Shown here one piece after another: positions 973-32,261 of a stretch of DNA of 38,045 nt. The translations under genes were made by a program, and so were the position numbers. Under the pieces are notes generated by a model. It saw only the letters and a list, made by a program, of their open reading frames with translations. It had not been told where the DNA came from and did no database searches. Positions within the stretch are counted from its first letter, which is position 1; every line of letters begins with the position of its first letter. The stretch comes from a virus (taxonomy: Duplodnaviria; Heunggongvirae; Uroviricota; Caudoviricetes), in IMG/VR virus record IMGVR_UViG_2778261204_000006, positions 1-38,045 of that record, one strand, 5' to 3'.

Positions 973-1359
973 TTAATCCCGGCTGTCATTCGGTTCATCA
1001 TCGTCTTCGAATAACTGCCCCTGCAACCGGCTGATTTCTTCCTTTCTTACGCGCTTTACCAGGTTGTAAATCCAGGGAACTGAAACCCTGAATCTGCGGG
1101 ACAGTTCGTGGTGGTTACGTCCGTTAAACGCCTCATAGATTTCACGGTCACGCTGGCTTATCTTCCATCTCATCCCCATAGGAAAATAAACGTTTTGCCC
1201 GCCCCAGACCTGCATCATGCGGTTCGCGACGGCCTGACCAATCTGGTCGGCAACTTCGGGCTCAATATCAATAATCTCGCGAACGGTCTCAGAGGTATGC
1301 TGTGCCAGTTCCACCAGGAGTTCCGGCCCCTTACTTCGAAACTGATTCAGGTCGCTCAT
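973..1359 (-). CDS. Mor/C-family transcriptional activator (phage middle/late gene activator)
   Basis: 128 aa; size and C-terminal HTH-like region fit the Mu Mor/C family; GGGAG RBS; located at the distal end of the early arm as in Mu. Confidence 0.65.
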   Translation of the reverse strand: MSDLNQFRSKGPELLVELAQHTSETVREIIDIEPEVADQIGQAVANRMMQVWGGQNVYFPMGMRWKISQRDREIYEAFNGRNHHELSRRFRVSVPWIYNLVKRVRKEEISRLQGQLFEDDDEPNDSRD

Positions 1360-8268: not shown

Positions 8269-9185
8269 TAACGTATGCCCTCCGGTCGGTTGATTTCAGG
8301 CTCCGGTTCGGTCAGCCAGGCGGGGACATCGTTACCCGATGGTGCGGCATCAAGGTCAAACGTCTCACGCAATGCATGAACACTGCGTTCAATCTGGCAG
8401 ACCAGACCGGCCATGAAATCTCTGGGGGTATCAATCATGTGTTCAGCACAATATGCGCACAGCGTCTCAAACGCGCCGGACAGCCGGACGGCGATGGCAG
8501 ATTCCGCCTCAACCGCTAATGCCGTCACTTCCGCCCGCAATTTTTTCAGTTCTTCGTCTGGCGGCGGAGGTTGCAGGCGCGATTTCTTCTCCAGTTTTGT
8601 GGCCAGTTCGTTGATTTTTTCGTCCTTTCCGGCAAGCACCTGTTGCTGAGCTGCGTTGGTTTCGCGCGCTTCACGCAGGGCCTGGCGAAGTTCGCGGCTG
8701 GTCATGCGATCAATATCGTCGAGAGTCATTCCAGCAACCGTGCCGCCGTCAGCCAGTTCGGCAAGATCTTCGTCATCTTCCGTCATTAACTCAAAAAGTT
8801 TGGTTTTCCCCAAATGTGCCAGCGCTGGCACATTTGGTTTCAGCGTCGGGGATAAGTATTTTGTCGATGCCTGCATCATTCGCACAGATGTCCGGTACGC
8901 CAGCCCCAACTCACCTTCAAGAATCTTTATAAACTCCCCATGCGGCTCATTTTCCTTAAGAAGGATCAATCGTTTACCGGCTTCCAGCATTGCTTCCGCG
9001 CTCTGCGCCATATAAAAGCGTGCCTCATGAACAACACGATCGCGCTCATAGGGCAGGCCATCACCGAACAGTTGCATGATCTCCGTGCTGTGTTGTGTCA
9101 TGGCGTTCAGACTGACATTGAGATCATCCGACAGGGGGACCTCGGCGTTCAGTTCAGTGTTAACCAGTGATTTAGTGCGTCCCAT
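8268..9185 (-). CDS. hypothetical early protein (acidic and coiled-coil regions)
   Basis: 305 aa; strong AAGGAG RBS 6 nt before ATG 9185. Confidence 0.5.
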   Translation of the reverse strand: MGRTKSLVNTELNAEVPLSDDLNVSLNAMTQHSTEIMQLFGDGLPYERDRVVHEARFYMAQSAEAMLEAGKRLILLKENEPHGEFIKILEGELGLAYRTSVRMMQASTKYLSPTLKPNVPALAHLGKTKLFELMTEDDEDLAELADGGTVAGMTLDDIDRMTSRELRQALREARETNAAQQQVLAGKDEKINELATKLEKKSRLQPPPPDEELKKLRAEVTALAVEAESAIAVRLSGAFETLCAYCAEHMIDTPRDFMAGLVCQIERSVHALRETFDLDAAPSGNDVPAWLTEPEPEINRPEGIR

Positions 9186-9195
9186 TGATTACTCC

Positions 9196-9504
9196 TTACA
9201 AACGACTACCTGAAATAACTCGCTGGTTGATTTCGTTAATACGATCCTGTGCACGTGCCATCTCGTTACTGTGGGCCATAGCGATCTGCAGTAACTGGAT
9301 GCCCGGCGCGAAACGCCCGTTTTCCAGTTTCAGGGCCAACCCTTCTTCAATGAGGGTGTTGAGTGCCCGGTTGATGTTTGCCGGTGACTCGTGCAGTGCT
9401 GCCGCCAGTTCACCGTTGGAAATACCGTTCAGGGCATGACCACGCAGCGCTTTCAGTACCCGGAGGATGCGACTGCCGGAGCTTGAAACATTCGTCTTAC
9501 TCAT
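9196..9504 (-). CDS. winged-helix DNA-binding regulator (IclR-N-terminal-like fold)
   Basis: ORF 9196..9510; translation SRILRVLKALRGHALNGISNGELAAALHESPANINRALNTLIEEGLAL resembles wHTH domains. Confidence 0.45.
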   Translation of the reverse strand: MSKTNVSSSGSRILRVLKALRGHALNGISNGELAAALHESPANINRALNTLIEEGLALKLENGRFAPGIQLLQIAMAHSNEMARAQDRINEINQRVISGSRL

Positions 9505-9556
9505 CTGCATACCTATTTTTCAATATGTGATAATCTTTTTCGTATGCTGTATCTTT

Positions 9557-9745
9557 TTAAGCGGCGTCAGTGATGGTTTTTAATCCCAGCTTTACAGCGA
9601 TTTCATGGGCTTTGCCATAGTTCGCTTTTACCTGGCCATTCAGTACGCGGTAAACCTCCGCTCTGGTGTAGTTGTTCTGTTTTGCCCACTGGGTAAAAGT
9701 GATCCCATTGCGACGGAAATGAGCTTTGACCTGGTCTGCAGTCAT
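9557..9745 (-). CDS. small DNA-binding protein (Ner/Cro-like early regulator)
   Basis: 62 aa; first gene of the leftward early operon; strong AAGGAG RBS; divergent from the repressor-like gene. Confidence 0.55.
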   Translation of the reverse strand: MTADQVKAHFRRNGITFTQWAKQNNYTRAEVYRVLNGQVKANYGKAHEIAVKLGLKTITDAA

Positions 9746-9797
9746 TGTTGTCTCCTTGTTTGGTGCAATGATGTTTGCGTTATGTGTGATAGATTAT

Positions 9798-9815
9798 TGT
9801 CTAAAAATTTAGACA
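9798..9815. promoter_or_regulatory. palindromic operator candidate TGTCTAAA-AA-TTTAGACA in the divergent regulatory region
   Basis: 8-bp perfect inverted arms with 2-bp spacer, 12 nt upstream of the repressor start. Confidence 0.4.
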
Positions 9816-9826
9816 GAGCAAGTTTT

Positions 9827-10180
9827 ATGTCCATTAATTTAGAAAAAATACATGCGCGTCTCATTTCAGAATTAAAACGTGTTGGTCCTTTGGCGGTATC
9901 TAAGTCCACTGGTATCTCGCGGGCGACGATTTATAACTGGATGGAAAAAGGAAATATCCCGCTAGATAAACTGGTAGTTTTAGGAGCAGCAGGAGTAGAT
10001 GTTGCCTTCATTCTTACGGGTATGAGCACAGATGGTGAGGTGGAAATTCAGAACCGGATATCCCCCGAAAAACAAAAATTAATAGATACTTTTGACGACA
10101 TGACACCAGAGCAACAACGCTCATTTCTTGAGATTGGGCGATTCTATACTCAGCCAAAACCAGGAAAAATCGCAGGCTGA
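9827..10180 (+). CDS. HTH (XRE/Cro-C1 type) repressor-like protein
   Basis: 117 aa from ATG 9827; HTH segment KSTGISRATIYNWMEKGNIP; divergent from the early operon as c is in Mu. Confidence 0.6.
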   Translation: MSINLEKIHARLISELKRVGPLAVSKSTGISRATIYNWMEKGNIPLDKLVVLGAAGVDVAFILTGMSTDGEVEIQNRISPEKQKLIDTFDDMTPEQQRSFLEIGRFYTQPKPGKIAG

Positions 10181-10266
10181 TTCTGACCTGGACACAAAGG
10201 ACAGGTGGTTGATCTGGACGCTTTCAGAAAGCGCCGTCAGTAGCATGGCAGGAATGGGCTGATTTA

Positions 10267-10297
10267 CCGGAAAGCATTGTGCTTTCCGGTTTTGTTT
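10267..10297 (+). terminator. rho-independent terminator downstream of the repressor-like gene
   Basis: CCGGAAAGC / GCTTTCCGG 9-bp stem, 5-nt loop, followed by TTTTGTTT. Confidence 0.5.
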
Positions 10298-11061
10298 CAG
10301 AAGTTGCAGATTACCAGTTCACGGCGCGGCGTGGGTTTCCCCGCCAGACTGTAGTTGATATTCACCGTCTGTATGTTCAGTTCAGTGAACACCCGACGCA
10401 TCTGCGGAATGTCGTTCACCGAGATAATCATCTTTCCTCTGATGCACCGGGCCAGTTCTGCGAGTAGTGTGTAGTTCTCTTCAGGAAAATCCACACCATA
10501 GCCTTCCGTCCCCAGATAGGGCGGATCACAGTAGAACAACGTGTGCGGACGGTCATAACGCTTAATGCACTGGTGCCAGTCCATGTGCTCTATCACCGTT
10601 CTGGAAAGCCGCAGGTGTGCCGCTGACAGTTCTTCTTCAATACGTAGCAGGTTGAAGCGTGGCGGAGATGTGGTGGATGTGCCGAAGCTGTGCTCTGCCA
10701 CCTTGCCACCAAATGCCTGCTTCTGGAGGTAGTAGAACCGTGCCGCACGCTGGATATCCGTCAGTGTTTCTTCCGGGGTGATCTGCAGCCATTTGTAGAT
10801 CTGCCGGCTAACCAGCGCCCATTTGAACTGGCGGATAAATTCTTCCAGGTGATGTTTTACCACCCGGTACAGATTCACCAGTTCACCATTGATATCGTTA
10901 ATGACTTCGAGCTTGCCGGGAGTCTTGAGAAAATAGAGCGCAGCTGCGCCGCAGAACGGCTCCACATAACATTCATGCGCAGGAAACAGCGGCAGGATGT
11001 GTTTTGCCAGGCGGCGTTTGCCACCAATCCATGGAACGATGGGTAATGTCTGCGTTTTCAT
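10297..11061 (-). CDS. Dam-like N6-adenine DNA methyltransferase
   Basis: 254 aa; DPPY catalytic motif (LFYCDPPYLG) and SAM-binding FxGxG-like motif (EPFCGAAA). Confidence 0.85.
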   Translation of the reverse strand: MKTQTLPIVPWIGGKRRLAKHILPLFPAHECYVEPFCGAAALYFLKTPGKLEVINDINGELVNLYRVVKHHLEEFIRQFKWALVSRQIYKWLQITPEETLTDIQRAARFYYLQKQAFGGKVAEHSFGTSTTSPPRFNLLRIEEELSAAHLRLSRTVIEHMDWHQCIKRYDRPHTLFYCDPPYLGTEGYGVDFPEENYTLLAELARCIRGKMIISVNDIPQMRRVFTELNIQTVNINYSLAGKPTPRRELVICNF

Positions 11062-11250
11062 AATCTGTAAGCCTTTTACAATTATTAAAAATATGGCAGG
11101 CTAGTCTGGTCTCGCGAGACTGACTGAACCTTGGTCGGCTCACAGTGCATTCCTGTGGGACGATGGCCAGCCCGGCTTTCGGGTGCCGGGCTGGTCGTTC
11201 TTTCATGATGCGGCAGGGATGAAGTGATTTCTGTTGATGTGGTTTAGGGA

Positions 11251-11466
11251 TTATCCGGGGCGATTTTCTGACCTTATCTGGTCCAGGGCATAAGTGATCC
11301 CTTCTGCAAAAACAGAAGTATCGAACTGCTTTTGTATTTCCTGAAAATGAACAGTGGCACGACAGATACTCAGTTCTCCGCGATGTAACCGGATAATATC
11401 TTCCAGAACATTGTTCACTGCTTCGGCACGGCGCTGATGTTCTGTTAACGTTAATCGGGGATTCAT
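11251..11466 (-). CDS. hypothetical small protein (71 aa); uncertain
   Basis: AAGGAG RBS 6 nt upstream of ATG 11466, but start overlaps the divergent start of the 134-aa ORF. Confidence 0.35.
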   Translation of the reverse strand: MNPRLTLTEHQRRAEAVNNVLEDIIRLHRGELSICRATVHFQEIQKQFDTSVFAEGITYALDQIRSENRPG

Positions 11467-11869
11467 GATGCACTCCTTAAATGATGATTTTTATGTACTC
11501 ACCGGCAAAATATTCTGCCGATTACTGAACACGCATCCGGCACCTCAGGTTTTGATTTATTCTGGTTTTTTCGATATCCCGGACCAGGTTGATCACGACC
11601 AGAAAAAGTGCCGGTATTTTATTGATACGCTGATATGGCTTCGGGATAACAGCTATATTCGTTACTCTCAGTTGCTGGCTGTGGGAGCGGCTGATGTCGT
11701 CCTCACGGAAAAAACGCTCTGTCTGCTCAATGCCATGCCGACCTTTCTGCAGCCCCGGCCCGTACCATTTAAAGAGTCGCTTCTGGATGCAGTAAAAACC
11801 GGTGAAAATGCAGTCATCGCTGAATGCGTATCCCGGATTATGCGTTACGTGTTTAATGAACGTAAGTGA
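11465..11869 (+). CDS. hypothetical protein (134 aa)
   Basis: Exactly fills the gap between minus-strand genes; 3' end overlaps the P-loop gene by 25 nt; looks AT-richer than flanks by eye. Confidence 0.45.
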   Translation: MMHSLNDDFYVLTGKIFCRLLNTHPAPQVLIYSGFFDIPDQVDHDQKKCRYFIDTLIWLRDNSYIRYSQLLAVGAADVVLTEKTLCLLNAMPTFLQPRPVPFKESLLDAVKTGENAVIAECVSRIMRYVFNERK

Positions 11870-12588
11870 GGTTTATCCGCTGTCTGCATAATCCCGATAG
11901 CCAGTGCGAGGGGAAGCAATTCCGGGGAAACTCTTTCAAACAGCGATTCCCATTCTCCTCTCGCCATCACTCTGTCCAGCCCTCCCTCCAGCTGCATTTC
12001 AGCAATCTTCCTGATTTCCCGGAACAACGCCGCTTTGATCTCTTCGTGCTCAGCTTTATTTTCCGGTGTCAGAATGTATTCGTCGAAGAACCGGGGAGGC
12101 TGGTTAACGGGGATTGTGTTCACCGGGATGTGTTCCTGCTTCCCGTACTTCGGGGCCGAAAAACATTCTGTTGGCTGACCGGTGAGTTTACGTAACTCCT
12201 TCATGAGCAGCTCCTGATCGTAAACTGTCATCAGTGCCGCAATGGTGGCATGCAGTGCATCGGGCAGTATCCAGGGTTGCCGGCCCGTGGGGCATATAAC
12301 ATCCAGCAGCTCATTCGTCCGACAGATACGCTCCTCGCCGTATGACAACAGGCCCTGTCCCGTGTATTCCTCCAGCCTGATCACTGTGCCACCCCGTGGC
12401 TTCTGCCAGGTCGTCAGATCATCGCCATTCATACGGCGCTCATTCTCCACGTCAGCAGCATCGACAATGACGCTGTTTCCGAGTTCCTGTTTCACCACTT
12501 CCTCTATCCGCGCCAGTACGTAACTTTTACCGCTGCCCACAGGACCGGACACGGTGACAGTGATGACCGGATTCAGTGTGTGCGTCAT
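11845..12588 (-). CDS. P-loop NTPase/kinase-like protein of unknown function
   Basis: 247 aa; N-terminal Walker A VSGPVGSGKSY; GAGGAG RBS; divergent from the lysis cassette. Confidence 0.55.
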   Translation of the reverse strand: MTHTLNPVITVTVSGPVGSGKSYVLARIEEVVKQELGNSVIVDAADVENERRMNGDDLTTWQKPRGGTVIRLEEYTGQGLLSYGEERICRTNELLDVICPTGRQPWILPDALHATIAALMTVYDQELLMKELRKLTGQPTECFSAPKYGKQEHIPVNTIPVNQPPRFFDEYILTPENKAEHEEIKAALFREIRKIAEMQLEGGLDRVMARGEWESLFERVSPELLPLALAIGIMQTADKPHLRSLNT

Positions 12589-12659
12589 ATCGTATTCTCC
12601 TCTGTGAATAATTCATCGTTTATCCTGCACATCCCGTATCCCCGGCTCTCTTAACGCGC

Positions 12660-12699
12660 TTTAAAATCCTTCGCGCCCCGTATTTGTGATGCTGTCTCC
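12660..12699 (+). promoter_or_regulatory. candidate activator-dependent late promoter (lysis operon)
   Basis: TTTAAAATCC at 12660 and CTGTCTCC at 12692, 32 bp apart; same bipartite motif upstream of three other late units. Confidence 0.4.
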
Positions 12700-12718
12700 A
12701 CCAGACAAGGAGACACAC

Positions 12719-13069
12719 ATGAAAAACCTGAAAAAATTCATTCCCCCTGTTAAAAAACCTCGCCTCAGCGGCTGGCTGCTGACCTCAGTGCTGCTGCTGG
12801 GCACCATCGCTCTGGTATCGCCACAGCAGTTGCCTGTTGTGATCTACAAGCTGGCACTCATCACGCTGGCAGCAGTGCTGGGTTACTGGCTTGACCGTTC
12901 GCTCTTCCCCAAAGCCCGTCCCGGTCAGTACCTGAAACATGACAACAGGCTGATGGCTGAAGGGCGTTTCCCTGTGCAGACCGGCCTGCACCTGGTGTTT
13001 TCTGCTGCGTTAATCCGCCGCGCACTGATTGTTGCAGCAGTCTGTCTGGCTGTGGCAACAGGGCTGTGA
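12719..13069 (+). CDS. putative holin / lysis membrane protein
   Basis: 116 aa from ATG 12719 (AAGGAGA RBS); 2-3 hydrophobic helices; immediately upstream of and overlapping the endolysin. Confidence 0.5.
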   Translation: MKNLKKFIPPVKKPRLSGWLLTSVLLLGTIALVSPQQLPVVIYKLALITLAAVLGYWLDRSLFPKARPGQYLKHDNRLMAEGRFPVQTGLHLVFSAALIRRALIVAAVCLAVATGL

Positions 13070-13071
13070 CC

Positions 13072-13797
13072 ATGAACTGGCCTCAAATCACCCTCATTAT
13101 TCTGTTCGCCTTTGCTCTGGGCGTAACCGCCATCAGACACGGCGAACCACGTAACGATAAATACAGCTTCTGGTGGCAGCTTGCTGGCAACCTGGTGATT
13201 GCCTGGCTGCTCTGGTGTGGCGGCTTTTTCAGTCAGGCATCCGCAGCACAGCCCCCGCGGGCTGCCCTGCAGTATCGCGATGATGTGATCCGTAATGCCC
13301 GCCTTGAATGGGGACTGTCTGCGCCGGTGGCTGATTTCGCTGCGCAACTGCATCAGGAAAGCGGCTGGCGACCTGATGCGATCTCGCCGGTGGGGGCTCA
13401 GGGACTGGCGCAGTTTATGCCTGCCACTGCCGACTGGATAAGCCAGTTGATGCCGGCGCTGAGCAGTCGAGAGCCGTTTAATCCGGCATGGGCTATCCGG
13501 GCGCTGGTCAGTTATGACCGCTGGCTGTGGCAGCGCATCAGCGCCGCCAGTGACTGCGAGCGTATGGCCATGACGCTGTCGGGCTATAACGGGGGTCTTG
13601 GCTGGGTACAGCGGGACAGGCAACTTGCATCACAGAAAGGGCTGGACCGTACCCGCTGGTTCGGACATGTCGCCACGGTGAATGCCGGACGCAATGCTGC
13701 CAGCTGGCGGGAGAACCGTCATTATCCCCGGCGCATCCTGTTCACGCTTGCCCCGCGTTATCTCTCATGGGGAGGGGCAAGCTGTGTGGGTACGTAA
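13072..13797 (+). CDS. lytic transglycosylase (SLT-domain) endolysin with N-terminal hydrophobic segment
   Basis: Motif ESGWRPDAISPVGAQGLAQFMP typical of SLT; N-terminus MNWPQITLIILFAFALGVTAI; alternative GTG start at 13066. Confidence 0.8.
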   Translation: MNWPQITLIILFAFALGVTAIRHGEPRNDKYSFWWQLAGNLVIAWLLWCGGFFSQASAAQPPRAALQYRDDVIRNARLEWGLSAPVADFAAQLHQESGWRPDAISPVGAQGLAQFMPATADWISQLMPALSSREPFNPAWAIRALVSYDRWLWQRISAASDCERMAMTLSGYNGGLGWVQRDRQLASQKGLDRTRWFGHVATVNAGRNAASWRENRHYPRRILFTLAPRYLSWGGASCVGT

Positions 13798-14437
13798 GTT
13801 ACGGTCGCTGCCGTGGCGGGTCATTATGCTGGCCATTCTCCTGAACGCCTTCCTGCTGGCGATCTGGTGGCTGGGATACAGCACAGGCCACGACCGGGCC
13901 TCCGCTGACGGTCAGGCGGCGCTCAGCCGCCTGCAGGCGGATTTTGACGGATACCGGGCAGAACAGGCCCGGAGTGAGGTGGCGGCGCTGCGCGCATGGT
14001 CTGAGCGTTATCAGGAGCAGGTAGCCGCCGGGCAACGGGCTGAAGCTGGTTATCTTGAGCAGATTGCTCAACTGGAGGACCAGAACAAACAACTACAGGG
14101 GCAAATTAACGATGTCACACAGCGCTGGATTGATGAAAAAGGTAAGAGCCATCCCATTGAGTGCGTGTTTACTCGCGGTTTCGTGCGCCAGTACAACGCC
14201 GCACTCGGATACGACAACGCATCCGTCGACACCGGTCATTCAGACTCAGTTGCCGCCGCTGGCACCCGCTCTGGCACAGCGACCGGGCAACCTGAAACCG
14301 CTGATACCCGGTTACGCGATTCGGGTGTCTCCCAGCGTGACGTTCTCGCCAACCTCATCGACAACGCAGGGCAATGTCGTCGCTGGCGAAACCAGATAAA
14401 CGCGCTGCTGGATGAACGGGAAGGATTACAGAAATGA
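13784..14437 (+). CDS. i-spanin (Rz-like)
   Basis: GTG start with GGGGAGGGG RBS; N-terminal TM then coiled-coil periplasmic domain; follows the endolysin. Confidence 0.65.
   Translation: MWVRKLRSLPWRVIMLAILLNAFLLAIWWLGYSTGHDRASADGQAALSRLQADFDGYRAEQARSEVAALRAWSERYQEQVAAGQRAEAGYLEQIAQLEDQNKQLQGQINDVTQRWIDEKGKSHPIECVFTRGFVRQYNAALGYDNASVDTGHSDSVAAAGTRSGTATGQPETADTRLRDSGVSQRDVLANLIDNAGQCRRWRNQINALLDEREGLQK
14133..14399 (+). CDS. o-spanin (Rz1-like lipoprotein) embedded in +1 frame within the i-spanin gene
   Basis: MKKVRAIPLSACLLAVSC lipoprotein signal with lipobox Cys, proline-rich mature region; wholly inside 13784..14437. Confidence 0.6.
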   Translation: MKKVRAIPLSACLLAVSCASTTPHSDTTTHPSTPVIQTQLPPLAPALAQRPGNLKPLIPGYAIRVSPSVTFSPTSSTTQGNVVAGETR

Positions 14438-14760
14438 CACTGCAGGTTGAATTCTGGACGGTGGTTGGCTTTCTGCTCACCTTCATGGGCTTTGTCGGCG
14501 GTATGGCCAAATGGCTGTTCAGTAAAGCGGAGGAACGCCAGGCTGCACGCTTCGCCTCCCTTGAACAGGCCCTGCAACAGTCCGCCTCCAGTTGGGGCGA
14601 GCTGGAAAAAGAATTGATGCGATTTAAAGCGGATTTACCGCTGAATTATGTCCGTCGCGAGGATTATATCCGTGGCCAGACGGTCATTGAGGCCAAACTG
14701 GACGCGCTCTACAACAAACTGGAAGTGGTACAGCAGTACCGCAATACCGGAGGTCAATAA
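14434..14760 (+). CDS. hypothetical membrane protein (late operon)
   Basis: 108 aa; ATGA overlap with spanin stop; N-terminal TM. Confidence 0.5.
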   Translation: MTLQVEFWTVVGFLLTFMGFVGGMAKWLFSKAEERQAARFASLEQALQQSASSWGELEKELMRFKADLPLNYVRREDYIRGQTVIEAKLDALYNKLEVVQQYRNTGGQ

Positions 14761-15071
14761 TGGTCGATATTACCCGTGTGCGCCGCGAATCCCTGCGCTG
14801 GAGTCTGCTGGTTGCCCTGAACAAAACCCGCCCTTATACCGCCAGCGAGACGCTGCTGCTGGAAGTGTCCCGCGCCATCTACCCGGACACCACGCAACTG
14901 GAGCTGCGCCGTGAGCTTGATTACCTGGCAGATCGCAAGATGGTGGAACTGGAGAAGAGGCCTTCCGGTGACTGGTTTGCCGATCTGAGTCGCCTTGGTG
15001 TGGATATTGTGGAATACACCGTGGAATGCGGCCCCGGTATTGCCCGACCGGAAAAATACTGGAGTGAGTGA
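14760..15071 (+). CDS. hypothetical late protein
   Basis: 103 aa; GGAGG RBS; TAATG overlap. Confidence 0.5.
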   Translation: MVDITRVRRESLRWSLLVALNKTRPYTASETLLLEVSRAIYPDTTQLELRRELDYLADRKMVELEKRPSGDWFADLSRLGVDIVEYTVECGPGIARPEKYWSE

Positions 15072-15073
15072 TT

Positions 15074-15616
15074 ATGGGACGTCGCAGCAGCATTGATTCT
15101 CTGCCGAAGGAGGTCCGTCGCTGGCTTGAGCGGGCACTGACGGAGAATAATTTCACCGGCTATGCAGAGCTTGAAAGTCTGTTGAAGGAAAAGGGGTACA
15201 GCATCACCCGCTCTTCCCTGCAGCGGTTTGGCTACAAAATGGAGCAGCAACTGGCCCGTGTGCGGGCGGCAACCGAGGCAGCGCGTCTGCTTGCCCGGGA
15301 GGCCGGAGACGATCCTGATGACCGTTCAGCCGGGCTGATAACCCTCGTCCAGACCGAAATGACGGATATCCTGATGCGCCTGCAGGAGTCGCGGGAAAAC
15401 GACGATCCCTTCGCCCGGGCAAAACTGCTGGCAACGGCTTCAAAAAATATCGCCACACTGACCCGCGCCTCGGTCAACCTCAAGCGCTATCAGGCAGAAG
15501 TCAGAGAGAGGGTTGAACGTGCTGCCGCTGCCGCCGAGAAAATTGCCCGTAAGGGCGGGCTCTCTGCGGAAGCCGTACAGGCACTGCGCCGGGAAATTCT
15601 GGGGGTGGCATCATGA
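15074..15616 (+). CDS. DNA-binding protein, candidate small terminase subunit
   Basis: About 180 aa immediately upstream of and overlapping the large terminase; basic N-terminus. Confidence 0.5.
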   Translation: MGRRSSIDSLPKEVRRWLERALTENNFTGYAELESLLKEKGYSITRSSLQRFGYKMEQQLARVRAATEAARLLAREAGDDPDDRSAGLITLVQTEMTDILMRLQESRENDDPFARAKLLATASKNIATLTRASVNLKRYQAEVRERVERAAAAAEKIARKGGLSAEAVQALRREILGVAS

Positions 15617-17136
15617 CGGAGCTGCCGCCGCACATTCCTGACACCGCGAGTTATGAGGCACCGCCCGTTCTGTTGCCTTACCAGCAGCGCTGGGTGGCAG
15701 ACACCTCTCCGCTTAAGGTGATGGAAAAGAGCCGTCGTACCGGTATTACATGGGCTGAGGCATCCGATAACGTACTGACCGCCGCCTCTTCTGCGCCTGC
15801 AGGCGGGATGAATGTGTATTACATCGCCTATAACCAGGATATGACCGTCGAATACATTCAGGCGTGTGCGATGTGGGCACGGGCATTCAACTATGCGGCC
15901 AGTGAAATTGAAGAAGGATTCTGGGAAGAGGACGACGACGATAAACACATCAGGACTTACACCATCAAATTTCCTGACTCCGGCTTTCGTATTGTTGCGC
16001 TCTCCAGCCGCCCGTCTAACCTGCGTGGCCGTCAGGGTATTATTGTTATCGACGAAGCGGCGTTCCATGAGCAACTGGACGAACTGCTGAAAGCGGCGCT
16101 GGCGATGCTTATCTGGGGGGGCAAGGTACGCGTTATCTCCACCCATGACGGTGACGACAATCCGTTCAATACGCTTATCGGGGATATCCGTGCCGGACGT
16201 CAGGGAGGCAGCGTACATCGCATCACTTTCCGGGAAGCCGTATCTGAAGGGTTGTTCCGGCGTGTCTGTCTGCGCACCGGGGAGGAATGGTCGGAGGCAT
16301 CCGAACAGGCCTGGATGGCGTCGGTGTACAAATTCTACGGTGCCGGTGCATCCGAAGAGCTTGACTGTATTCCGGCCAACGGTGGCGGTGCCTGGCTGTC
16401 CCGAGCCCTGATAGAGTCCCGCATGTCCGCTGATACGCCGGTATTGCGTCTGACCTGCCAGGAAGGTTATGAACTGCTGTCTGATGAGGTTCGCTTCCGC
16501 GAGACGCAGGACTGGCTTGATGAGCATCTGAAACCATTACTGGAGGCACTCCCCACTGATGCCCGCTCTTTCCTGGGGCGCGACTTTGGCCGCAGCGGTG
16601 ATTTGTCGGTGGACTACCCGTTGTTGCAGGAGAAGAACCTGATACGACGCGTGCCATTCGTACTGGAGCTGCGTAACGTGCCGTTCAGACAGCAGGAGCA
16701 AATCACCTGGTATCTGATGGATGGTCTGCCCGGTCTGCTGGGTGCAGCGTTTGATGCCCGTGGTAATGGTGCCTATCTGGCTGAATACGCCATGCAGCGC
16801 TACGGTTCCAGCCGGGTTCAGCAGGTGATGCCAACCGAAGGCTGGTACCGGGAGCATATGCCTCCGGTCAAAGCTGCACTGGAAGACGGTAACCTGGTGG
16901 ACTTACCAAAGGATGAAGACACACTGGATGACCTGCGGGCCGTTCAGGTGGTGAACGGTGTCCCCCGCGTGCCGGAGCAACGCTCAAAAGCAAAGGCTGA
17001 TGGTGGTAAACGCCACGGGGATTCAGCCATCGCACTGGCGCTGGCGTATTTCGCCAGCCGTGAAATTAACAAAGGGCCGGTGAAGGCAAGCTCACGCCGT
17101 CGTCGTCAGGCGGCCCGTATGCTGGAGGGATTCTGA
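15613..17136 (+). CDS. terminase large subunit
   Basis: 507 aa; position directly upstream of portal; acidic DEAA-like segment (IVIDEAAFHEQ). Confidence 0.75.
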   Translation: MTELPPHIPDTASYEAPPVLLPYQQRWVADTSPLKVMEKSRRTGITWAEASDNVLTAASSAPAGGMNVYYIAYNQDMTVEYIQACAMWARAFNYAASEIEEGFWEEDDDDKHIRTYTIKFPDSGFRIVALSSRPSNLRGRQGIIVIDEAAFHEQLDELLKAALAMLIWGGKVRVISTHDGDDNPFNTLIGDIRAGRQGGSVHRITFREAVSEGLFRRVCLRTGEEWSEASEQAWMASVYKFYGAGASEELDCIPANGGGAWLSRALIESRMSADTPVLRLTCQEGYELLSDEVRFRETQDWLDEHLKPLLEALPTDARSFLGRDFGRSGDLSVDYPLLQEKNLIRRVPFVLELRNVPFRQQEQITWYLMDGLPGLLGAAFDARGNGAYLAEYAMQRYGSSRVQQVMPTEGWYREHMPPVKAALEDGNLVDLPKDEDTLDDLRAVQVVNGVPRVPEQRSKAKADGGKRHGDSAIALALAYFASREINKGPVKASSRRRRQAARMLEGF

Positions 17137-18629
17137 TGGCGAGGGGTATCTGGGTTTCACCCGATGAGTTCGTGGCGTTCGCCGAACCTAAAAAATCACT
17201 GACCGCGCAGATTGCCTCCCGCAGTCGCGCCATCGATTTTTACGCTCTGGGAATGTACCTGCCCAATCCTGATCCCATTCTCAAGGCTCAGGGACGGGAT
17301 ATCCGTATCTACCGCGAACTGCGCACCGACCCGCTGGTCGGGGGCTGTATCCGCAGACGTAAAGCAGCGCTCAAATCGCTGGAGCGTGGACTGGAGCGCG
17401 GTCACGCTTCTGCCCGGGTCTTCCGTTTCATCCGCGACATGCTCGACGATCTGGATCTGTCCCGTATCATCGGTGAGATGAGCGATGCCGTGCTCTACGG
17501 GTATCAGCCCTGTGAAATCATGTGGGGCCGTTCGGTCAGGGCGTGGGCGGTGACGGATATTGTCGGCAAACCACCTGAGTGGTTTCAGTTTGATACGGAC
17601 AACTGCCTGCGCTTCCGGGCGCGTGATGCGGGTGTGGAGGGGGAACTGCTGTCACCGTCAAAATTCGTGGTGCCCGCGCAGGATGCCTCGTATGACAATC
17701 CCTACGGTTTCCCGGACCTGTCCATGTGCTTCTGGCCTGTCACCTTCAAGAAAGGCGGGATGAAATTCTGGCTCCGCTTTGCCGAAAAGTTTGGCTCCCC
17801 GTGGGTAGTCGGTAAGCACCCGAGGGGCGCAAATGATGCAGAGATTGAAGAACTGCTGGACTCCATGGAGCAGATGGTGGAGGACGCGGTGGCCGCCATC
17901 CCCGATGACAGCAGCATTGAGCTTAAGGAGGCAGGCGGCAAGGCTGCCAGCAGTGAGGTGTTCCGCGAGCTGATCACACTGTCACGCAGTGAGATCTCCA
18001 TTGCATTACTCGGTCAGAACCAGACTACCGAAGCGAACAGTAACCGGGCCTCCGCGCAGGCCGGGCTGGAGGTGACGGATGATATCCGCGATGCGGATGC
18101 GGACATCATTCAGGCGGCAGTGAATCAGGTCATCAGAACGGTGGTCACCCTGAACTTTGGCGATGTGCCGTGTCCGGTCTGGGCCATGTGGGAACAGGAG
18201 GCCATTGATGACACCCGTGCCACCCGCGACGAAAAACTCACCCGGGCGGGGCTGCGCCTGACCCCGCAGTACTTCATGCGGGAGTACCAGTTGCAGGAAG
18301 GGGATATTGACCTCTCTGATGCACCGGTTGCGGACGGGGCAGTGCCTGCAGAATTTGCCGAGGCGATAAGCGCCGATCATGATGCACAACAGCAGCTTGA
18401 CGACGCGCTGGACATTCTGATGAACGGAGGTGTGTTAAATGGCACGCTGGAACCCGTCCTGGCACCTCTGTTCAGGCGGGTCGAAAATGGGGTTAACCCG
18501 TCTGAGCTGCTGGGCGAACTGGCGGAGCTCTACCCTCAGATGAGCACGGACGATCTGCAGGAACGGCTGGCCCGCATTCTCTTTGTGGCAAATATCTGGG
18601 GGCGTCTGCATGAGCGTGACAACGGCTGA
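17136..18629 (+). CDS. portal protein (Mu gp29/DUF935-like)
   Basis: 497 aa; between terminase and Mu F-like gene; TGATG coupling. Confidence 0.75.
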   Translation: MARGIWVSPDEFVAFAEPKKSLTAQIASRSRAIDFYALGMYLPNPDPILKAQGRDIRIYRELRTDPLVGGCIRRRKAALKSLERGLERGHASARVFRFIRDMLDDLDLSRIIGEMSDAVLYGYQPCEIMWGRSVRAWAVTDIVGKPPEWFQFDTDNCLRFRARDAGVEGELLSPSKFVVPAQDASYDNPYGFPDLSMCFWPVTFKKGGMKFWLRFAEKFGSPWVVGKHPRGANDAEIEELLDSMEQMVEDAVAAIPDDSSIELKEAGGKAASSEVFRELITLSRSEISIALLGQNQTTEANSNRASAQAGLEVTDDIRDADADIIQAAVNQVIRTVVTLNFGDVPCPVWAMWEQEAIDDTRATRDEKLTRAGLRLTPQYFMREYQLQEGDIDLSDAPVADGAVPAEFAEAISADHDAQQQLDDALDILMNGGVLNGTLEPVLAPLFRRVENGVNPSELLGELAELYPQMSTDDLQERLARILFVANIWGRLHERDNG

Positions 18630-19431: not shown

Positions 19432-19994
19432 TGATGGCTTCCGATAAACTGGTCGATATCACCATTAACGATAAATCCCTGCGCCGGAGTCTCCGCGCAC
19501 TGGAGCTCTCTGCCACAGATCTGGAACCCGCGATGCGCAAAATTGCCGGTGCATTGTTAACAGAAACCCAGATAAATTTTATGGATGAAGGGCGTCCCTC
19601 CTGGCTCCCTTCGCTGGCAGCAGAAGAACGTGATGGCCAGACACTGCAGGATACAGGACGTCTGATGAGCTCTGTCACCACACATTATGACCACCATCAG
19701 GCTGTCATCGGGACTAATGTGATCTATGCGGCCATCCATCAGTTCGGAGGGGAGATTAAACATAAAGAGCGACAGCAGAGTATCCACTGGCGTCAGGACA
19801 AAGAGGGAAACCTGCGTATGTCTGAACGAAGCCGGGCACATATCTCGCAGTCGTATCATGTGGACGCGTACACATCAGAAATGCCCGCCCGTCCTTTCCT
19901 GCCACTGAAAAGCGATGGGGGTTTGCAGCCAGAGGCTGAGCGTGCCGTACTGGACACGATTGTCCGCCATCTTGAATCAGCGGCCCGTCGCTGA
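19431..19994 (+). CDS. virion morphogenesis protein (Mu G-like)
   Basis: 187 aa; position after the F-like gene; TAATG coupling. Confidence 0.55.
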   Translation: MMASDKLVDITINDKSLRRSLRALELSATDLEPAMRKIAGALLTETQINFMDEGRPSWLPSLAAEERDGQTLQDTGRLMSSVTTHYDHHQAVIGTNVIYAAIHQFGGEIKHKERQQSIHWRQDKEGNLRMSERSRAHISQSYHVDAYTSEMPARPFLPLKSDGGLQPEAERAVLDTIVRHLESAARR

Positions 19995-20040
19995 GTTTTC
20001 TCTCTTCAGGCGGGTGATTTATCATTGCCAGCGAATGAGG

Positions 20041-20082
20041 GGCTGTATTACCTTTATAAAGGCTTTACAGCCTCTGTTTTAT
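20041..20082 (+). terminator. rho-independent terminator between the head-morphogenesis and protease/capsid units
   Basis: GGCTGTA...TACAGCC outer stem with inner CCTTTATAAAGG palindrome, followed by TCTGTTTTAT. Confidence 0.45.
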
Positions 20083-20144
20083 AACCGCCCCCGGTTCACC
20101 ACATTGCTTTCCCTGTCCTTCTCCCCTGATGTTTTCTAAAGCAG

Positions 20145-20184
20145 ATTAAAATCGCCGGGCCTGCATTTCTCACAAACTGTCTCC
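20145..20184 (+). promoter_or_regulatory. candidate activator-dependent late promoter (head operon)
   Basis: ATTAAAATCG at 20145 and CTGTCTCC at 20177, 32 bp apart. Confidence 0.4.
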
Positions 20185-20208
20185 GACAACATAACGCGGG
20201 ACAGCAAA

Positions 20209-21324: not shown

Positions 21325-21338
21325 TTTAAGGAGAAATC

Positions 21339-22640: not shown

Positions 22641-22641
22641 C

Positions 22642-26031: not shown

Positions 26032-26055
26032 AGGGGCTCCGGCCCCTTTCTTCTT
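26032..26055 (+). terminator. rho-independent terminator
   Basis: AGGGGC-TCCG-GCCCCT hairpin followed by TTCTTCTT. Confidence 0.45.
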
Positions 26056-26062
26056 AATCTCC

Positions 26063-26101
26063 TTTAATATCCGTTGCGTCCACCGCCAGACATACTGCCC
26101 T
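26063..26101 (+). promoter_or_regulatory. candidate activator-dependent late promoter (tail operon)
   Basis: CCTTTAATATCC at 26061 and ACTGCCC at 26094; same 32-bp spacing as the other late motifs. Confidence 0.4.
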
Positions 26102-26123
26102 GAACTTACACAGGAGCACGATC

Positions 26124-31859: not shown

Positions 31860-31873
31860 CCTTCTTAAACGCC

Positions 31874-31912
31874 TTTAATATCGGCGTTCCCGCACAGGGG
31901 CAATACTGCCCC
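31874..31912 (+). promoter_or_regulatory. candidate internal late promoter upstream of the baseplate W gene
   Basis: CCTTTAATATCG at 31872 and ACTGCCC at 31905, 32 bp apart. Confidence 0.35.
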
Positions 31913-31913
31913 C

Positions 31914-32261
31914 ATGAAAACAACCTCAGTATTCTGGCAACCGGCTCTGCAGGCCCCCGGCGAAATCGTCCGGGGGCTGGATGATATCTGGCAGGCTATT
32001 CAAATCATCCTGCGTACTCCTCGCGGCAGCGACCCGCATCGCCCGGAGTTCGGCAGCAATCTGCACCTTTATATCGACTGGCCTATTGACCGGGCCATTC
32101 CGCATGTGGTGCGCGAATCCGTCGATGCCATCCGCAGCTGGGAGCCTCGCTGCCAGCTTATGTCGGTCAAACCCGCCGTCGACGGCGAACATCTTACGCT
32201 CCGGGTGAGCTGGAAAGGCTCTGACGGACAGCCCCGGACTCAGGAGTTGCTATGGCGCTGA
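31914..32261 (+). CDS. baseplate protein W (GPW/gp25 family)
   Basis: 115 aa; IILRTPRGSDPHRPEFGSNLHLYIDWP motif. Confidence 0.8.
   Translation: MKTTSVFWQPALQAPGEIVRGLDDIWQAIQIILRTPRGSDPHRPEFGSNLHLYIDWPIDRAIPHVVRESVDAIRSWEPRCQLMSVKPAVDGEHLTLRVSWKGSDGQPRTQELLWR

What the first reader, a model, noticed from the sequence alone, without database searches (positions are those of the whole stretch)
12660..12699. Conserved bipartite motif upstream of four late transcription units
Element A (TTTAA[A/T]ATC) and element B (CTG[T/C]C[T/C]C) occur with an identical 32-bp offset upstream of the lysis operon (12660/12692), the protease-capsid unit (20145/20177), the tail chaperone unit (26063/26095) and the baseplate W gene (31874/31906). 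Three of the four follow an intrinsic terminator or a divergent region (the baseplate W copy lies in a short gap after the spike gene), and the elements sit about 40-64 bp before the start codons. This fits activator-dependent late promoters of the kind Mu C and Mor use. Only one Mor/C-family gene (973..1359) is in the window.
Basis: seen in the sequence. Interest (0 to 1): 0.55.

Follow-up and report, generated by a model that had tools for sequence, protein, structure and literature searches.

The report
Mor-activated late promoters of Mu-like prophage
The repeated motif marks four (possibly five) late promoters of a BcepMu-type transposable prophage, most likely switched on by the phage's single Mor/C-type activator: an expected kind of element, but each promoter also appears to encode the RNA arm that masks the next gene's ribosome-binding site.

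Summary
TTAAWATC-N23-CTGYCY occurs exactly four times, all on the + strand, in gaps before the holin, protease/scaffold, tail-chaperone and baseplate-W genes.

The window is a BcepMu-like prophage with one Mor/C-family gene (973-1359, minus strand).

Across 74 unique orthologous sites from Enterobacterales, Burkholderia and others, the register is fixed. TTAA-N6-TTAA lies at -49..-36, A at -34, and 23 nt further on a -10 hexamer nAnnCT followed by G. The spacer is not conserved and there is no -35 hexamer.

Element A is the proximal half of the activator box. Element B is the end of the -10 hexamer plus the discriminator. The dyad centre is about -42.5, against -43.5 for Mu C/Mor sites.

Two further features emerged:
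- Element B is also the 5' arm of a conserved hairpin that pairs with the downstream Shine-Dalgarno sequence. Only promoter-initiated RNA would then expose it, as in T4 gene e.
- The W start codon sits at the predicted +1, which implies a leaderless mRNA.

A weaker fifth box lies on the minus strand before the dam methylase gene.

No start site was mapped, so all positions relative to +1 are inferred. This is a new member of a known kind.

The parts
973..1359 (-). Mor/C-family transcription activator gene. It is the last gene of the leftward early operon and the only family member in the window.
   Evidence: PF08765 E = 5e-41. It is 51% identical to BcepMu gp01. It matches Mu C (PDB 9l0x, E = 1.6e-10) better than Mu Mor (1rr7, E = 2e-7). 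A six-frame search finds no second copy.
12651..12668 (+). Plys activator box TTAA-N6-TTAAAATC (predicted -49..-32).
   Evidence: T-48, A-47, A-46, T-39, T-38, A-37, A-36 and A-34 are present in 97-100% of 74 unique orthologous sites.
12688..12700 (+). Plys -10 hexamer GATGCT (12688-12693, preceded by TGt), discriminator, and predicted +1 at A12700.
   Evidence: A-11 and T-7 are invariant and G-6 is present in 96% of 74 sites. The start site is inferred from the geometry and was not mapped.
12693..12715 (+). Hairpin that forms only in read-through RNA: 5' arm TGTCTCC (12693-12699, -7..-1) pairs with GGAGACA (12709-12715), the holin Shine-Dalgarno sequence. The holin ATG is at 12719.
   Evidence: Fold energy -12.3 kcal/mol, z = -2.4. 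92% of cells are paired in 18 relatives, against 32-51% for slid controls. The Shine-Dalgarno sequence pairs with -5..-1 in nearly all relatives.
20136..20153 (+). PI activator box CTAA-N6-TTAAAATC, upstream of the protease/scaffold and capsid genes.
20173..20204 (+). PI -10 hexamer CAAACT (20173-20178; the inferred Mu PI hexamer is the same), predicted +1 at G20185, and a hairpin CTGTCTCCG (20177-20185) with CGCGGGACAG (20195-20204) covering the Shine-Dalgarno region. The ATG is at 20209.
   Evidence: 91% of cells paired, 4 pairs with changes on both sides, 15 compensatory cells, 0 of 500 shuffles reach the observed score. z = -3.0. The Photorhabdus version CTGCCTCTAT/ATAGAGGCAG folds at -19 kcal/mol, z = -6.7.
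26032..26047 (+). Intrinsic terminator ending the head/sheath/tube unit. Its T-run runs into the Ptail box.
   Evidence: 6-bp stem with 5 G-C pairs, followed by TTCTTCTT.
26054..26071 (+). Ptail activator box TTAA-N6-TTAATATC.
26091..26118 (+). Ptail -10 hexamer CATACT (26091-26096), predicted +1 at A26103, and a hairpin TGCCCTG (26096-26102) with CAGG(A)GCA (26111-26118) covering the Shine-Dalgarno sequence. An outer ACAU/AUGU pairing reaches the start codon at 26124.
   Evidence: Fold energy -12.7 kcal/mol, z = -3.4. The distant Gallibacterium relative has a perfect 11-12-bp version, AACTCCTTAGT/ACTAAGGAGTT, z = -3.5.
31865..31882 (+). PW activator box TTAA-N6-TTAATATC, in the 54-bp gap after the spike gene.
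   Evidence: BcepMu has TTAG-N6-TTAATATC at the same place.
31897..31916 (+). PW -10 hexamer AATACT (31902-31907), flanked by hairpin arms GGGGCA (31897-31902) and TGCCCC (31907-31912). The baseplate-W ATG (31914) is exactly at the predicted +1, with no Shine-Dalgarno sequence within 12 nt: a candidate leaderless mRNA.
   Evidence: The ATG lies 6 nt (7 in two sequences) after the hexamer in all 12 unique W sites, including Burkholderia. The hairpin is 98% paired, with 2 pairs changed on both sides and 6 of 500 shuffles reaching the score. z = -3.1.
11198..11247 (-). Candidate fifth Mor-type promoter upstream of the dam methylase gene (10297-11061, minus strand). Box CTAA-N6-TCAA (11247-11230), hexamer CATCAT (11210-11205) followed by G, predicted +1 near 11198. 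The window copy has C at the otherwise near-invariant T-38.
   Evidence: Best non-cognate PWM hit, 15.2 bits in the window and 22.7 in PhiKM. PhiKM and 9 IMG/VR contigs all carry TTAA, with a variable spacer.
11167..11194 (-). Conserved stem-loop CCAGCCCGGC...GCCGGGCTGG at +5..+32 of the predicted dam leader.
   Evidence: Relatives show compensatory variants (GGC/GCC to GGA/TCC, and a changed loop with an extended stem).

Best explanation
The four sites are sigma-70 late promoters that need the prophage's single Mor/C-family activator (973-1359, minus strand).

Anatomy, numbered from the predicted start site:
- An 18-bp box, TTAA-N6-TTAA-W-A-T-C, spans -49..-32. Its dyad centre is near -42.5 and it overlaps the place where a -35 hexamer would be.
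- A non-conserved spacer follows.
- A weak -10 hexamer, nAnnCT, spans -12..-7 and lacks the usual T at -12.
- G is at -6, and a purine is at +1.

Inferred mechanism, by homology with Mu C and Mor: the activator is made at the end of the leftward early operon. It binds the two TTAA half-sites in adjacent major grooves and recruits or repositions RNA polymerase through the alpha C-terminal domain and sigma region 4. This turns on the lysis/packaging, head, tail and baseplate units directly. It is a two-tier early-to-late cascade, without Mu's separate middle stage.

Element A is the proximal half-site plus its flank. Element B is C-8, T-7, G-6 plus the discriminator.

Second layer, inferred with lower confidence (about 0.5): the promoter's -8..-1 bases also encode the 5' arm of an RNA hairpin whose 3' arm is the Shine-Dalgarno or start region of the first gene.
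- RNA reading in from upstream would have that ribosome-binding site masked.
- RNA started at the promoter lacks the arm and is translatable. This is the logic known for T4 genes e, soc, 49 and I-TevI.
- At the W promoter the start codon is itself +1 (a leaderless mRNA). There the hairpin brackets the -10 hexamer and would bury the AUG context in read-through RNA.

What is shown: motif, register, conservation, the family of the activator, and hairpin conservation. What is inferred: start sites, activator binding, and translational gating.
For: Significance and uniqueness of the motif:
- Exact-pattern statistics and a PWM with the window's own sites excluded single out these four positions.

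Independent conservation:
- A scan of 40 capsid-anchored loci with the 16 invariant columns hits only the + strand. Nearly all hits fall at the four syntenic positions, in about 25 Enterobacterales prophages. The one exception is a hit at about 700 in the distant Gallibacterium locus.
- BcepMu has related boxes in the same four gaps.
- In 74 unique sites the box and the A-11/T-7/G-6 positions carry 1.7-2.0 bits. The spacer carries 0.0-0.5 bits, and the spacing never varies.

The activator:
- PF08765, E = 5e-41.
- The closest solved relatives are Mu C and Mu Mor.
- There is a single copy.

Geometry check against Mu:
- The same counting gives ATAA + 24 nt to the inferred hexamers TAGACT, CAAACT and TAAGAT at Mu Plys, PI and Pmom. 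That places the dyad at -43.5, which reproduces the published value.
- In this family the distance is 23 nt.

Absence of a consensus promoter:
- The sigma-70 scan, which covered 9000-28000, lists none at the lysis, protease or tail sites.

The hairpin layer:
- Covariation at PI and PW, with many G-U pairs that work only on the sense strand.
- Fold z-scores from -2.4 to -6.7.
- In 49 of 52 unique leaders the Shine-Dalgarno sequence pairs with bases upstream of +3, mostly -6..-1.
- Predicted Shine-Dalgarno accessibility is 0.09-0.21 in read-through RNA, 0.41-0.48 in promoter-initiated RNA, and 0.25-0.31 when the arm is shuffled.
- The median accessibility for 23 other late genes is 0.45.
- Mu Plys and PI show the same arrangement.
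- The T4 precedent is described in PMC3014915.
Against: - No transcription start site, footprint or activator dependence is available for any member of this phage group. All positions relative to +1 rest on the A-11/T-7 assignment.
- The -10 hexamers are weak, and position -12 is rarely T.
- The box centre is 1 bp closer to the start than in Mu.
- The holin and tail hairpins are conserved but show almost no compensatory change. Their conservation could simply reflect constraint on the Shine-Dalgarno sequence and the -10/discriminator.
- A source of read-through RNA at Plys is not evident: the region is divergent and there is a strong terminator at 10266-10290.
- The strong terminator before Ptail would already limit read-through there.
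- Translation of leaderless mRNA in E. coli is usually inefficient.
Confidence: 0.8

Rival explanations
1. The promoters are real, but the inverted repeats involving element B are not a translational gate. They could be by-products of two constrained sequences: a C/T-rich discriminator and a purine-rich Shine-Dalgarno sequence. Alternatively they could serve another RNA role in polycistronic read-through transcripts, such as an RNase III/E processing site, a stability element or a pause site.
For: The holin hairpin has only 1 cell changed on both sides, and shuffles do as well (195 of 500). The tail hairpin in the close clade shows only one-sided changes and a few mismatches. Shuffling the arm still leaves the Shine-Dalgarno sequence partly paired, at 0.25-0.31. 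Strong terminators already insulate some of the units.
Against: PI and PW show true compensatory changes. Unrelated arm sequences in Photorhabdus, Gallibacterium, BcepMu and Mu all end at -1..+2 and all reach the Shine-Dalgarno sequence or the AUG. The three first genes rank among the six least accessible of 26 late-gene Shine-Dalgarno sites.
Confidence: 0.3
2. Transcription starts upstream of element B. B and its partner would then form a 5'-terminal stem-loop present in all late mRNAs, acting as an mRNA stabiliser or as an operator for a translational regulator (as in Mu com-mom). Element A would act as an UP-like or -35-like part of an ordinary promoter.
For: The hairpins are conserved and lie next to the start codons. 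Mu does use an RNA hairpin plus the Com protein to control mom translation (own knowledge).
Against: There is no conserved -10-like signal 7 nt upstream of B: positions -22..-17 carry 0.0-0.25 bits. By contrast, A-11 and T-7 are invariant in 74 sites. At PW, and at PI in Burkholderia, the start codon lies 6-7 nt after the hexamer, which leaves no room for such a leader. The sigma-70 consensus scan finds no promoter at the three sites it covered.
Confidence: 0.07
3. The box is a binding site for some other DNA-binding protein and is not a promoter element. Candidates are an IHF/HU-type bending site, a transposition or packaging site, the Ner- or repressor-like proteins, or a site for an antiterminator acting on the upstream terminators.
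For: The box is AT-rich and palindromic. Two copies sit just after terminator-like hairpins. The prophage encodes several helix-turn-helix proteins.
Against: The box keeps a rigid 23-nt distance to a -10-like hexamer and always points towards the downstream genes. The only strong extra copy lies before another late-type gene, dam. The half-site layout (4 bp, N6, 4 bp) copies the Mu C site TTAT-N6-ATAA. One copy (Plys) follows no terminator. No copy lies near the predicted early promoter/operator region.
Confidence: 0.04
4. The four copies are chance matches, or a dispersed selfish repeat (REP- or MITE-like) without regulatory function.
For: The motif is short and AT-rich, and there are only four copies in the window.
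Against: 0 of 100 shuffles reach the observed count. The copies are conserved at orthologous positions in genomes whose capsid proteins are only 44-86% identical to the window's, while the intervening spacers are randomised. All copies are strand-specific and intergenic.
Confidence: 0.01

Closest known systems
Phage Mu C-dependent late promoters (Plys, PI, PP, Pmom) and the Mor-dependent middle promoter Pm
   Same: - The activator belongs to the same family (PF08765).
- The promoters use sigma-70, with a recognisable -10 and no -35.
- The box has two 4-bp AT-rich half-sites separated by 6 bp (Mu: TTAT-N6-ATAA; here: TTAA-N6-TTAA) and overlaps the -35 region.
- Units before the lysis genes and before the protease/scaffold gene I are in equivalent places.
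- The PI hexamer CAAACT is identical to the one inferred for Mu PI.
- A DNA-modification gene may also be under late control (Mu mom; dam here).
   Different: - There is one activator instead of two, so no middle stage.
- The half-site sequence differs.
- The box is 23 nt rather than 24 nt from the hexamer (centre -42.5 against -43.5).
- The tail-region promoters sit before the tail chaperone and before baseplate W, not before Mu gene P.
- The early arm is inverted relative to the late arm, as in BcepMu.
- Nothing has been tested experimentally.
T4 genes e (lysozyme), soc, 49 and I-TevI: late promoter placed inside a hairpin that sequesters the ribosome-binding site (PMC3014915)
   Same: Long upstream-initiated transcripts can form a hairpin over the Shine-Dalgarno sequence or AUG. 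The late promoter lies in the DNA that encodes the 5' arm, so late transcripts lack that arm. A lysis gene is among the targets.
   Different: - T4 uses gp55-dependent TATAAATA promoters. Here the promoters are sigma-70 promoters dependent on an activator.
- Here the arrangement is found at every late promoter of the phage, and apparently also at Mu Plys and PI.
- In this family it is purely a prediction.
Phage P2/186 Ogr/B-dependent late promoters (four per genome); P2 gene V mRNA is reported to be leaderless (own recollection, not verified here)
   Same: There are four activator-dependent sigma-70 late promoters without -35 hexamers driving lysis/head/tail units. The tail module here is P2-like (V, W, J, I, H). 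There is a possible leaderless transcript in the V-W baseplate region.
   Different: The activator family is unrelated (a zinc-finger Ogr protein, site TGT-N12-ACA near -55). In P2 the promoter precedes V; here it lies between V and W.
Lambda cI mRNA from PRM, the classic leaderless mRNA (own knowledge)
   Same: The transcript is predicted to begin with the A of the AUG of the first gene.
   Different: The lambda case is experimentally established and concerns a regulator made at a low level. Here it concerns a structural baseplate protein and is inferred from promoter geometry only.

Membership tests
Mor/C-dependent promoters (phage Mu type) | A Mor/C-family activator is encoded by the same element. 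| tested here: met
   PF08765 E = 5e-41. Matches Mu C (9l0x) and Mu Mor (1rr7). Single copy.
Mor/C-dependent promoters (phage Mu type) | A recognisable -10 hexamer and no usable -35 hexamer. | tested here: met
   A-11 and T-7 are invariant and C-8 is present in 84% of 74 sites. The -35..-30 bases (AATCCT, AATCGC, TATCCG, TATCGG) match TTGACA at 2 of 6 or fewer. The sigma-70 scan, which covered 9000-28000, lists none of the three sites in that range.
Mor/C-dependent promoters (phage Mu type) | [quoted passage not shown] | tested here: met
   TTAA-N6-TTAA at -49..-36, centre -42.5 relative to the predicted +1. That is 1 bp nearer than in Mu. The result depends on an inferred start site.
Mor/C-dependent promoters (phage Mu type) | Transcription needs the activator, and the activator footprints about -30 to -55. 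| not testable with these tools
   Needs reporter assays and EMSA or DNase I footprinting.
Mor/C-dependent promoters (phage Mu type) | Mapped start sites about 7 nt downstream of the hexamer. | not testable with these tools
   No RNA data. No paper on late promoters of BcepMu-type phages was found.
Promoter-inside-hairpin translational gating (T4 e / I-TevI type) | A hairpin in upstream-initiated RNA sequesters the Shine-Dalgarno sequence or AUG of the gene. | tested here: met
   This is a prediction only. Support comes (pair conservation and covariation; accessibility; z-scores; 49 of 52 leaders).
Promoter-inside-hairpin translational gating (T4 e / I-TevI type) | The late start site falls within or just after the 5' arm, so late RNA lacks it. 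| tested here: inconclusive
   The arms end at -1..+2 relative to the predicted +1 in nearly all instances, but +1 is inferred and not mapped.
Promoter-inside-hairpin translational gating (T4 e / I-TevI type) | Read-through transcripts exist and are poorly translated. | not testable with these tools
   Needs RNA-seq and translational fusions.
Leaderless mRNA | The transcript starts at (or within 1-2 nt of) the A of the start codon, and there is no Shine-Dalgarno sequence. | tested here: inconclusive
   The W ATG lies 6-7 nt after the hexamer in all 12 unique W sites. There is no upstream in-frame start and no Shine-Dalgarno sequence within 12 nt. The same holds for the protease gene in the Burkholderia clade. 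The start site is not mapped.

The most novel reading that the evidence does not exclude
Mor/C-type late promoters, in this family and apparently in Mu itself (Plys, PI), are built so that the -10/discriminator DNA doubles as the anti-Shine-Dalgarno arm of a hairpin. Only transcripts started by the activator-bound promoter would then be translated, and any read-through RNA would be translationally silent. At the baseplate-W promoter (and the protease promoter of the Burkholderia clade) the same end is reached by starting the mRNA at the AUG. This would be a general, previously unremarked coupling of promoter identity to translatability in transposable phages. Such phages sit at random places in host transcription units.
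Probability: 0.4. Interest if true: 0.6.

Novelty: new member of a known kind. Interest (0 to 1): 0.42.

Why it matters
It gives a concrete regulatory map for a very common but unstudied prophage group. A 1.4-kb segment around the lysis promoter is present in 636 of 5,426 complete E. coli genomes.
- It names the activator and gives its box, TTAA-N6-TTAA-N23-nAnnCT-G.
- It defines four or five late units and a two-tier cascade.
- The consensus can be used to annotate late promoters across BcepMu-like phages of Enterobacterales and Burkholderia.
- It points to specific mutations for experiments.

If the promoter-embedded anti-Shine-Dalgarno arms and the leaderless W transcript are confirmed, they extend a translational safety device known from T4 to activator-dependent promoters, including those of phage Mu.

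Tried and rejected
- A sigma-70 consensus scan over 9000-28000 found no promoter at the three sites it covers. That is consistent with activator dependence rather than against a promoter.
- Rfam found nothing in the window.
- A second Mor/C paralogue, which would give a Mu-like middle stage, was searched for and not found.
- An alternative -10 placement upstream of element B was considered and rejected, because positions -22..-17 carry no information.
- Literature on BcepMu-family late promoters was searched and nothing was found. The original BcepMu paper (J Mol Biol 2004) and Margolin et al. 1989 (PMC209851) are not held. I therefore could not check whether the boxes were noted there, nor read the mapped Mu start sites directly.
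- A literature check for the leaderless P2 gene V mRNA failed. That parallel is from memory only.
- MAFFT put the Burkholderia W hairpins out of register. They were left out of the pair counts and treated as independent instances.
- A first accessibility calculation used a fixed -14..-5 window, which was too crude. It was redone with a located Shine-Dalgarno sequence and shuffled-arm controls.
- One script failed because alignment rows named 'window' overwrote the window sequence. It was fixed.
Full report
**Observation.**
The four copies are in the sequence as described.
- The common core TTAAWATC-N23-CTGYCY has four exact matches in 38 kb, all on the + strand.
- With up to two mismatches there are 7 matches against 0.89 expected, and no shuffle out of 100 reaches 7.
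- Two small corrections apply. The copy at 20145 starts with A, and the B copy at 26095 ends in T.
- Aligning the four regions shows an additional conserved TTAA (CTAA at the protease copy) exactly 10 bp upstream of the TTAA in element A. It also shows an invariant A three bases before the CTG of element B.

**What the window is.**
The layout of the window is as follows.
- Leftward early operon: a Ner-like helix-turn-helix gene (9196-9510), a transposase (6166-7935), GemA (1331-1780) and, last, a Mor-family gene (973-1359; PF08765, E = 5e-41).
- Between the arms: a rightward repressor-like gene (9605-10180) and a leftward dam methylase gene (10297-11061).
- Rightward late arm: holin, SLT lysin, Mu gp27-like small terminase, portal, Mu G-like protein, protease/scaffold, capsid, sheath, tube, tail chaperone, tape measure, spike V, baseplate W and fibres.

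The Mor-like protein is 51% identical to gp01 of Burkholderia phage BcepMu, and the gene order is that of BcepMu. A 1.4-kb segment around the lysis promoter occurs in 636 of 5,426 complete E. coli genomes.

Only one Mor/C-family gene is present. It is closer to Mu C than to Mu Mor among solved structures.

**Independent test by conservation.**
BcepMu has non-coding gaps at the same four places: before holin gp21, protease gp32, chaperone gp41 and baseplate gp49. It carries related boxes there.
- I fetched 40 loci around capsid homologues from one genome per species. I scanned them with only the 16 columns invariant in the window.
- Every hit was on the + strand. Nearly all were at the four syntenic positions, in about 25 prophages. 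Genera included Mixta, Pantoea, Erwinia, Photorhabdus, Xenorhabdus, Pectobacterium and Brenneria. The one hit elsewhere was in the distant Gallibacterium locus.
- I then anchored the regions by protein homology. This gave 74 unique promoter instances in one fixed, ungapped register.
- T-48, A-47, A-46, T-39, T-38, A-37, A-36, A-34, A-11, T-7 and G-6 are present in 96-100% of sites and carry 1.7-2.0 bits. C-8 is present in 84%.
- The 22 spacer positions carry 0.0-0.5 bits.
- A PWM built without the target genome's own sites finds the four sites in the window at 33-46 bits. It likewise finds four in each of KP12 and PhiKM, well above everything else.

The motif is therefore real, selected, strand-specific and intergenic.

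**What the elements are.**
The profile is that of an activator-dependent sigma-70 promoter.
- The hexamers are GATGCT, CAAACT, CATACT and AATACT in the window. In BcepMu they are CAAGAT, GATGAT, GACAAT and CAACAT.
- All of them keep the two key -10 positions, A-11 and T-7, and lack T-12.
- There is no -35 hexamer. The consensus scan, which covered 9000-28000, lists none of the three sites in that range.
- The box is TTAA-N6-TTAA followed by W-A-T-C. Element A is therefore the promoter-proximal half-site plus flank. Element B is C-8, T-7, G-6 plus four discriminator bases.

I checked the counting on Mu itself. At Plys, PI and Pmom the right half-site ATAA lies 24 nt from the inferred hexamers TAGACT, CAAACT and TAAGAT. 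That puts the centre of TTAT-N6-ATAA at -43.5, which is the published value. The literature describes a 16-bp imperfect dyad centred at -43.5, a footprint from -30 to -55, and important bases immediately downstream (PMC2582627).

In the present family the distance is 23 nt, so the centre is near -42.5.

Cryo-EM work shows that Mor and C bind two adjacent major grooves just upstream of the -35 region and contact the alpha C-terminal domain, sigma region 4 and the beta flap (bioRxiv 10.1101/2025.05.02.651988). Two 4-bp half-sites 10 bp apart fit that picture.

The likely recognition helix is shared by the window protein, KP12 and BcepMu (S-x-x-W-I/V-Y) and differs in Mu C and Mor. This agrees with a shared TTAA specificity, but it is only an inference.

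**Mechanism proposed.**
The activator is the last gene of the early operon and no second family member exists. I therefore infer a two-tier cascade: early transcription makes the activator, which directly switches on the lysis/packaging, head, tail and baseplate units. Activator binding, polymerase recruitment and the start sites (A12700, G20185, A26103, A31914) are inferred by homology and geometry. None is shown.

**Why the distal part of element B looks conserved.**
Pooled over the family, positions -5..-2 carry little information, yet within each lineage they are conserved. They form the 5' arm of an inverted repeat whose partner is the Shine-Dalgarno region of the first gene:
- Holin: TGTCTCC with GGAGACA.
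- Protease: CTGTCTCCG with CGCGGGACAG.
- Chaperone: TGCCCTG with CAGG(A)GCA.

These fold at -10.7 to -12.7 kcal/mol, with z-scores of -2.4 to -3.4.

Pair counts across relatives:
- The protease hairpin is 91% paired. It has four pairs changed on both sides and 15 compensatory cells, and no shuffle out of 500 reaches the observed score. Slid controls are 32-49% paired.
- The holin hairpin is 92% paired but barely covaries.
- The many G-U pairs fit RNA of the sense strand, not a DNA palindrome.

More distant relatives realise the same idea with unrelated sequences:
- Photorhabdus: CTGCCTCTAT with ATAGAGGCAG, -19 kcal/mol, z = -6.7.
- Gallibacterium: AACTCCTTAGT with ACTAAGGAGTT.
- BcepMu holin leader: -28.4 kcal/mol, z = -6. 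Here the spacer pairs with GGGAGG and the -10 hexamer sits in an inner loop.

Summary statistics:
- In 49 of 52 unique leaders the Shine-Dalgarno sequence pairs with bases upstream of +3, mostly -6..-1.
- Predicted Shine-Dalgarno accessibility is 0.09-0.21 in RNA that includes 60 nt upstream. It is 0.41-0.48 in RNA starting at the predicted +1, and 0.25-0.31 when -12..-1 is shuffled.
- The median for 23 other late genes in the window is 0.45.

Mu Plys and PI behave the same way. Their fold energies are -13.9 and -14.7 kcal/mol, and both fall to -1.5 when the RNA starts at the predicted +1.

This is the arrangement established for T4 genes e, soc, 49 and I-TevI. There a late promoter lies in the DNA encoding the 5' arm of a hairpin that masks the ribosome-binding site (PMC3014915). 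I give the gating interpretation about 0.5. The alternative is that two constrained sequences happen to be complementary, or that the hairpins have another RNA role.

**The W promoter.**
- The ATG of baseplate W (31914) is the first possible start codon of its frame, and its N-terminus is conserved.
- It has no Shine-Dalgarno sequence within 12 nt.
- It lies 6 nt (7 in two sequences) after the hexamer in all 12 unique W sites, including Burkholderia. That is exactly the predicted +1.
- This implies a leaderless W mRNA.
- The hexamer is bracketed by GGGGCA and TGCCCC. This hairpin is 98% paired, has two pairs changed on both sides, and has a separate GCGGC/GCCGC version in BcepMu.
- In the Burkholderia clade the protease gene is in the same situation. 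Its homology-supported start, ATGAAC at L001 18862, is 7 nt after the hexamer. The annotated ATG at 18850 lies inside the hexamer.

These cases also pin the start site. If those genes are translated from these promoters, +1 cannot be further downstream.

**A fifth site.**
The best remaining PWM hit is on the minus strand at 11247-11198, right after a 71-codon ORF and upstream of the dam methylase gene.
- It reads CTAA-N6-TCAA, then CATCAT followed by G, in the standard register.
- PhiKM and nine IMG/VR contigs carry the canonical TTAA with a variable spacer. The window copy therefore has a substitution at a position that is otherwise conserved in 97% of sites.
- A conserved stem-loop with compensatory variants follows at +5..+32.
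- A DNA-modification gene under the late activator recalls Mu Pmom. This remains a candidate only.

**Comparison with known systems, and novelty.**
The sites work like Mu C/Mor-dependent promoters and meet the sequence-level criteria of that class. Activator dependence, footprint and start sites are untestable here.

I found no description of late promoters for BcepMu-type phages in the searchable literature. I could not read the original BcepMu paper.

I therefore file this as a new member of a known kind. Its specific differences are the TTAA half-sites, a 1-bp shorter distance to the hexamer, a single activator, and different placement of the tail-region promoters. The promoter-embedded anti-Shine-Dalgarno arms and the leaderless W transcript are the most novel readings that the evidence allows.

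**Verdict.**
Interest is moderate: this is a solid, transferable regulatory annotation of a widespread prophage family, plus a testable hypothesis about promoters and translation.

Noticed in passing
window 20055-20067 (+); also L001 18741-18753 and 16 other loci: The 13-mer TATAAAGGCTTTA is exactly conserved in 18 fetched loci, from E. coli-type prophages to BcepMu of Burkholderia. It always lies in the gap between the Mu G-like gene and the protease gene, about 60-110 nt upstream of the PI box. Mu has its central strong gyrase site in the equivalent G-I gap (annotated cut site). This could be the counterpart, or another cis-acting site.
   Followed up: partly
window 11198-11247 (-) and 11167-11194 (-): There is a fifth Mor-type box plus hexamer upstream of the dam methylase gene, with a C at position -38 where all ten relatives examined have T. 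A conserved leader stem-loop with compensatory variants follows it. It is a possible functional analogue of Mu Pmom.
   Followed up: partly
L044 (phage Mu NC_000929) 1945-1990 and 9519-9565: Mu Plys and PI also have inverted repeats. They join the -8..+3 region of the promoter to the lys start codon (CTGCCATCA with TGATGGCGG) or to the region just before the gene I Shine-Dalgarno sequence (CTGCTCA with TGAGCAG). Predicted stability drops from about -14 to -1.5 kcal/mol if the RNA starts at the predicted +1. I found no mention of this in the papers searched.
   Followed up: partly
L001 (BcepMu NC_005882) 18850-18864: The annotated start of gp32 (ATG at 18850) lies inside the predicted -10 hexamer GATGAT. 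Homology to the window protein begins at the ATGAAC at 18862, which is 7 nt after the hexamer. The annotated start is probably wrong and the mRNA may be leaderless.
   Followed up: partly
window 31887-31895 (+): The PW spacer contains TTCCCGCAC at -27..-19. The same 9-mer is at the same position in Mu PI. The 8-mer TCCCGCAC is also in Mu Plys, 10 bp further upstream. It is the only TCCCGCAC in the window. It is not conserved in Photorhabdus or Xenorhabdus relatives, so its meaning is unclear.
   Followed up: partly
window 10266-10290: A strong hairpin (11-bp stem) with T-runs on both sides lies between the convergent repressor-like gene and the dam gene. It is probably a bidirectional terminator.
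   Followed up: no
L002 (OM835952, 'Klebsiella phage KP12 clone KP12_2'): This GenBank record is filed under Vequintavirinae. It is in fact a complete BcepMu-like element with transposase, Mor-like gene and the four late promoters. It is probably a co-assembled prophage.
   Followed up: no
window 11845-12588 (-) compared with L002 24342-24908: The segment between dam and the holin promoter is a variable cargo region. In the window and PhiKM it holds a 247-aa leftward gene with a weak AAA_30 match. In KP12 it holds a different, rightward gene.
   Followed up: no
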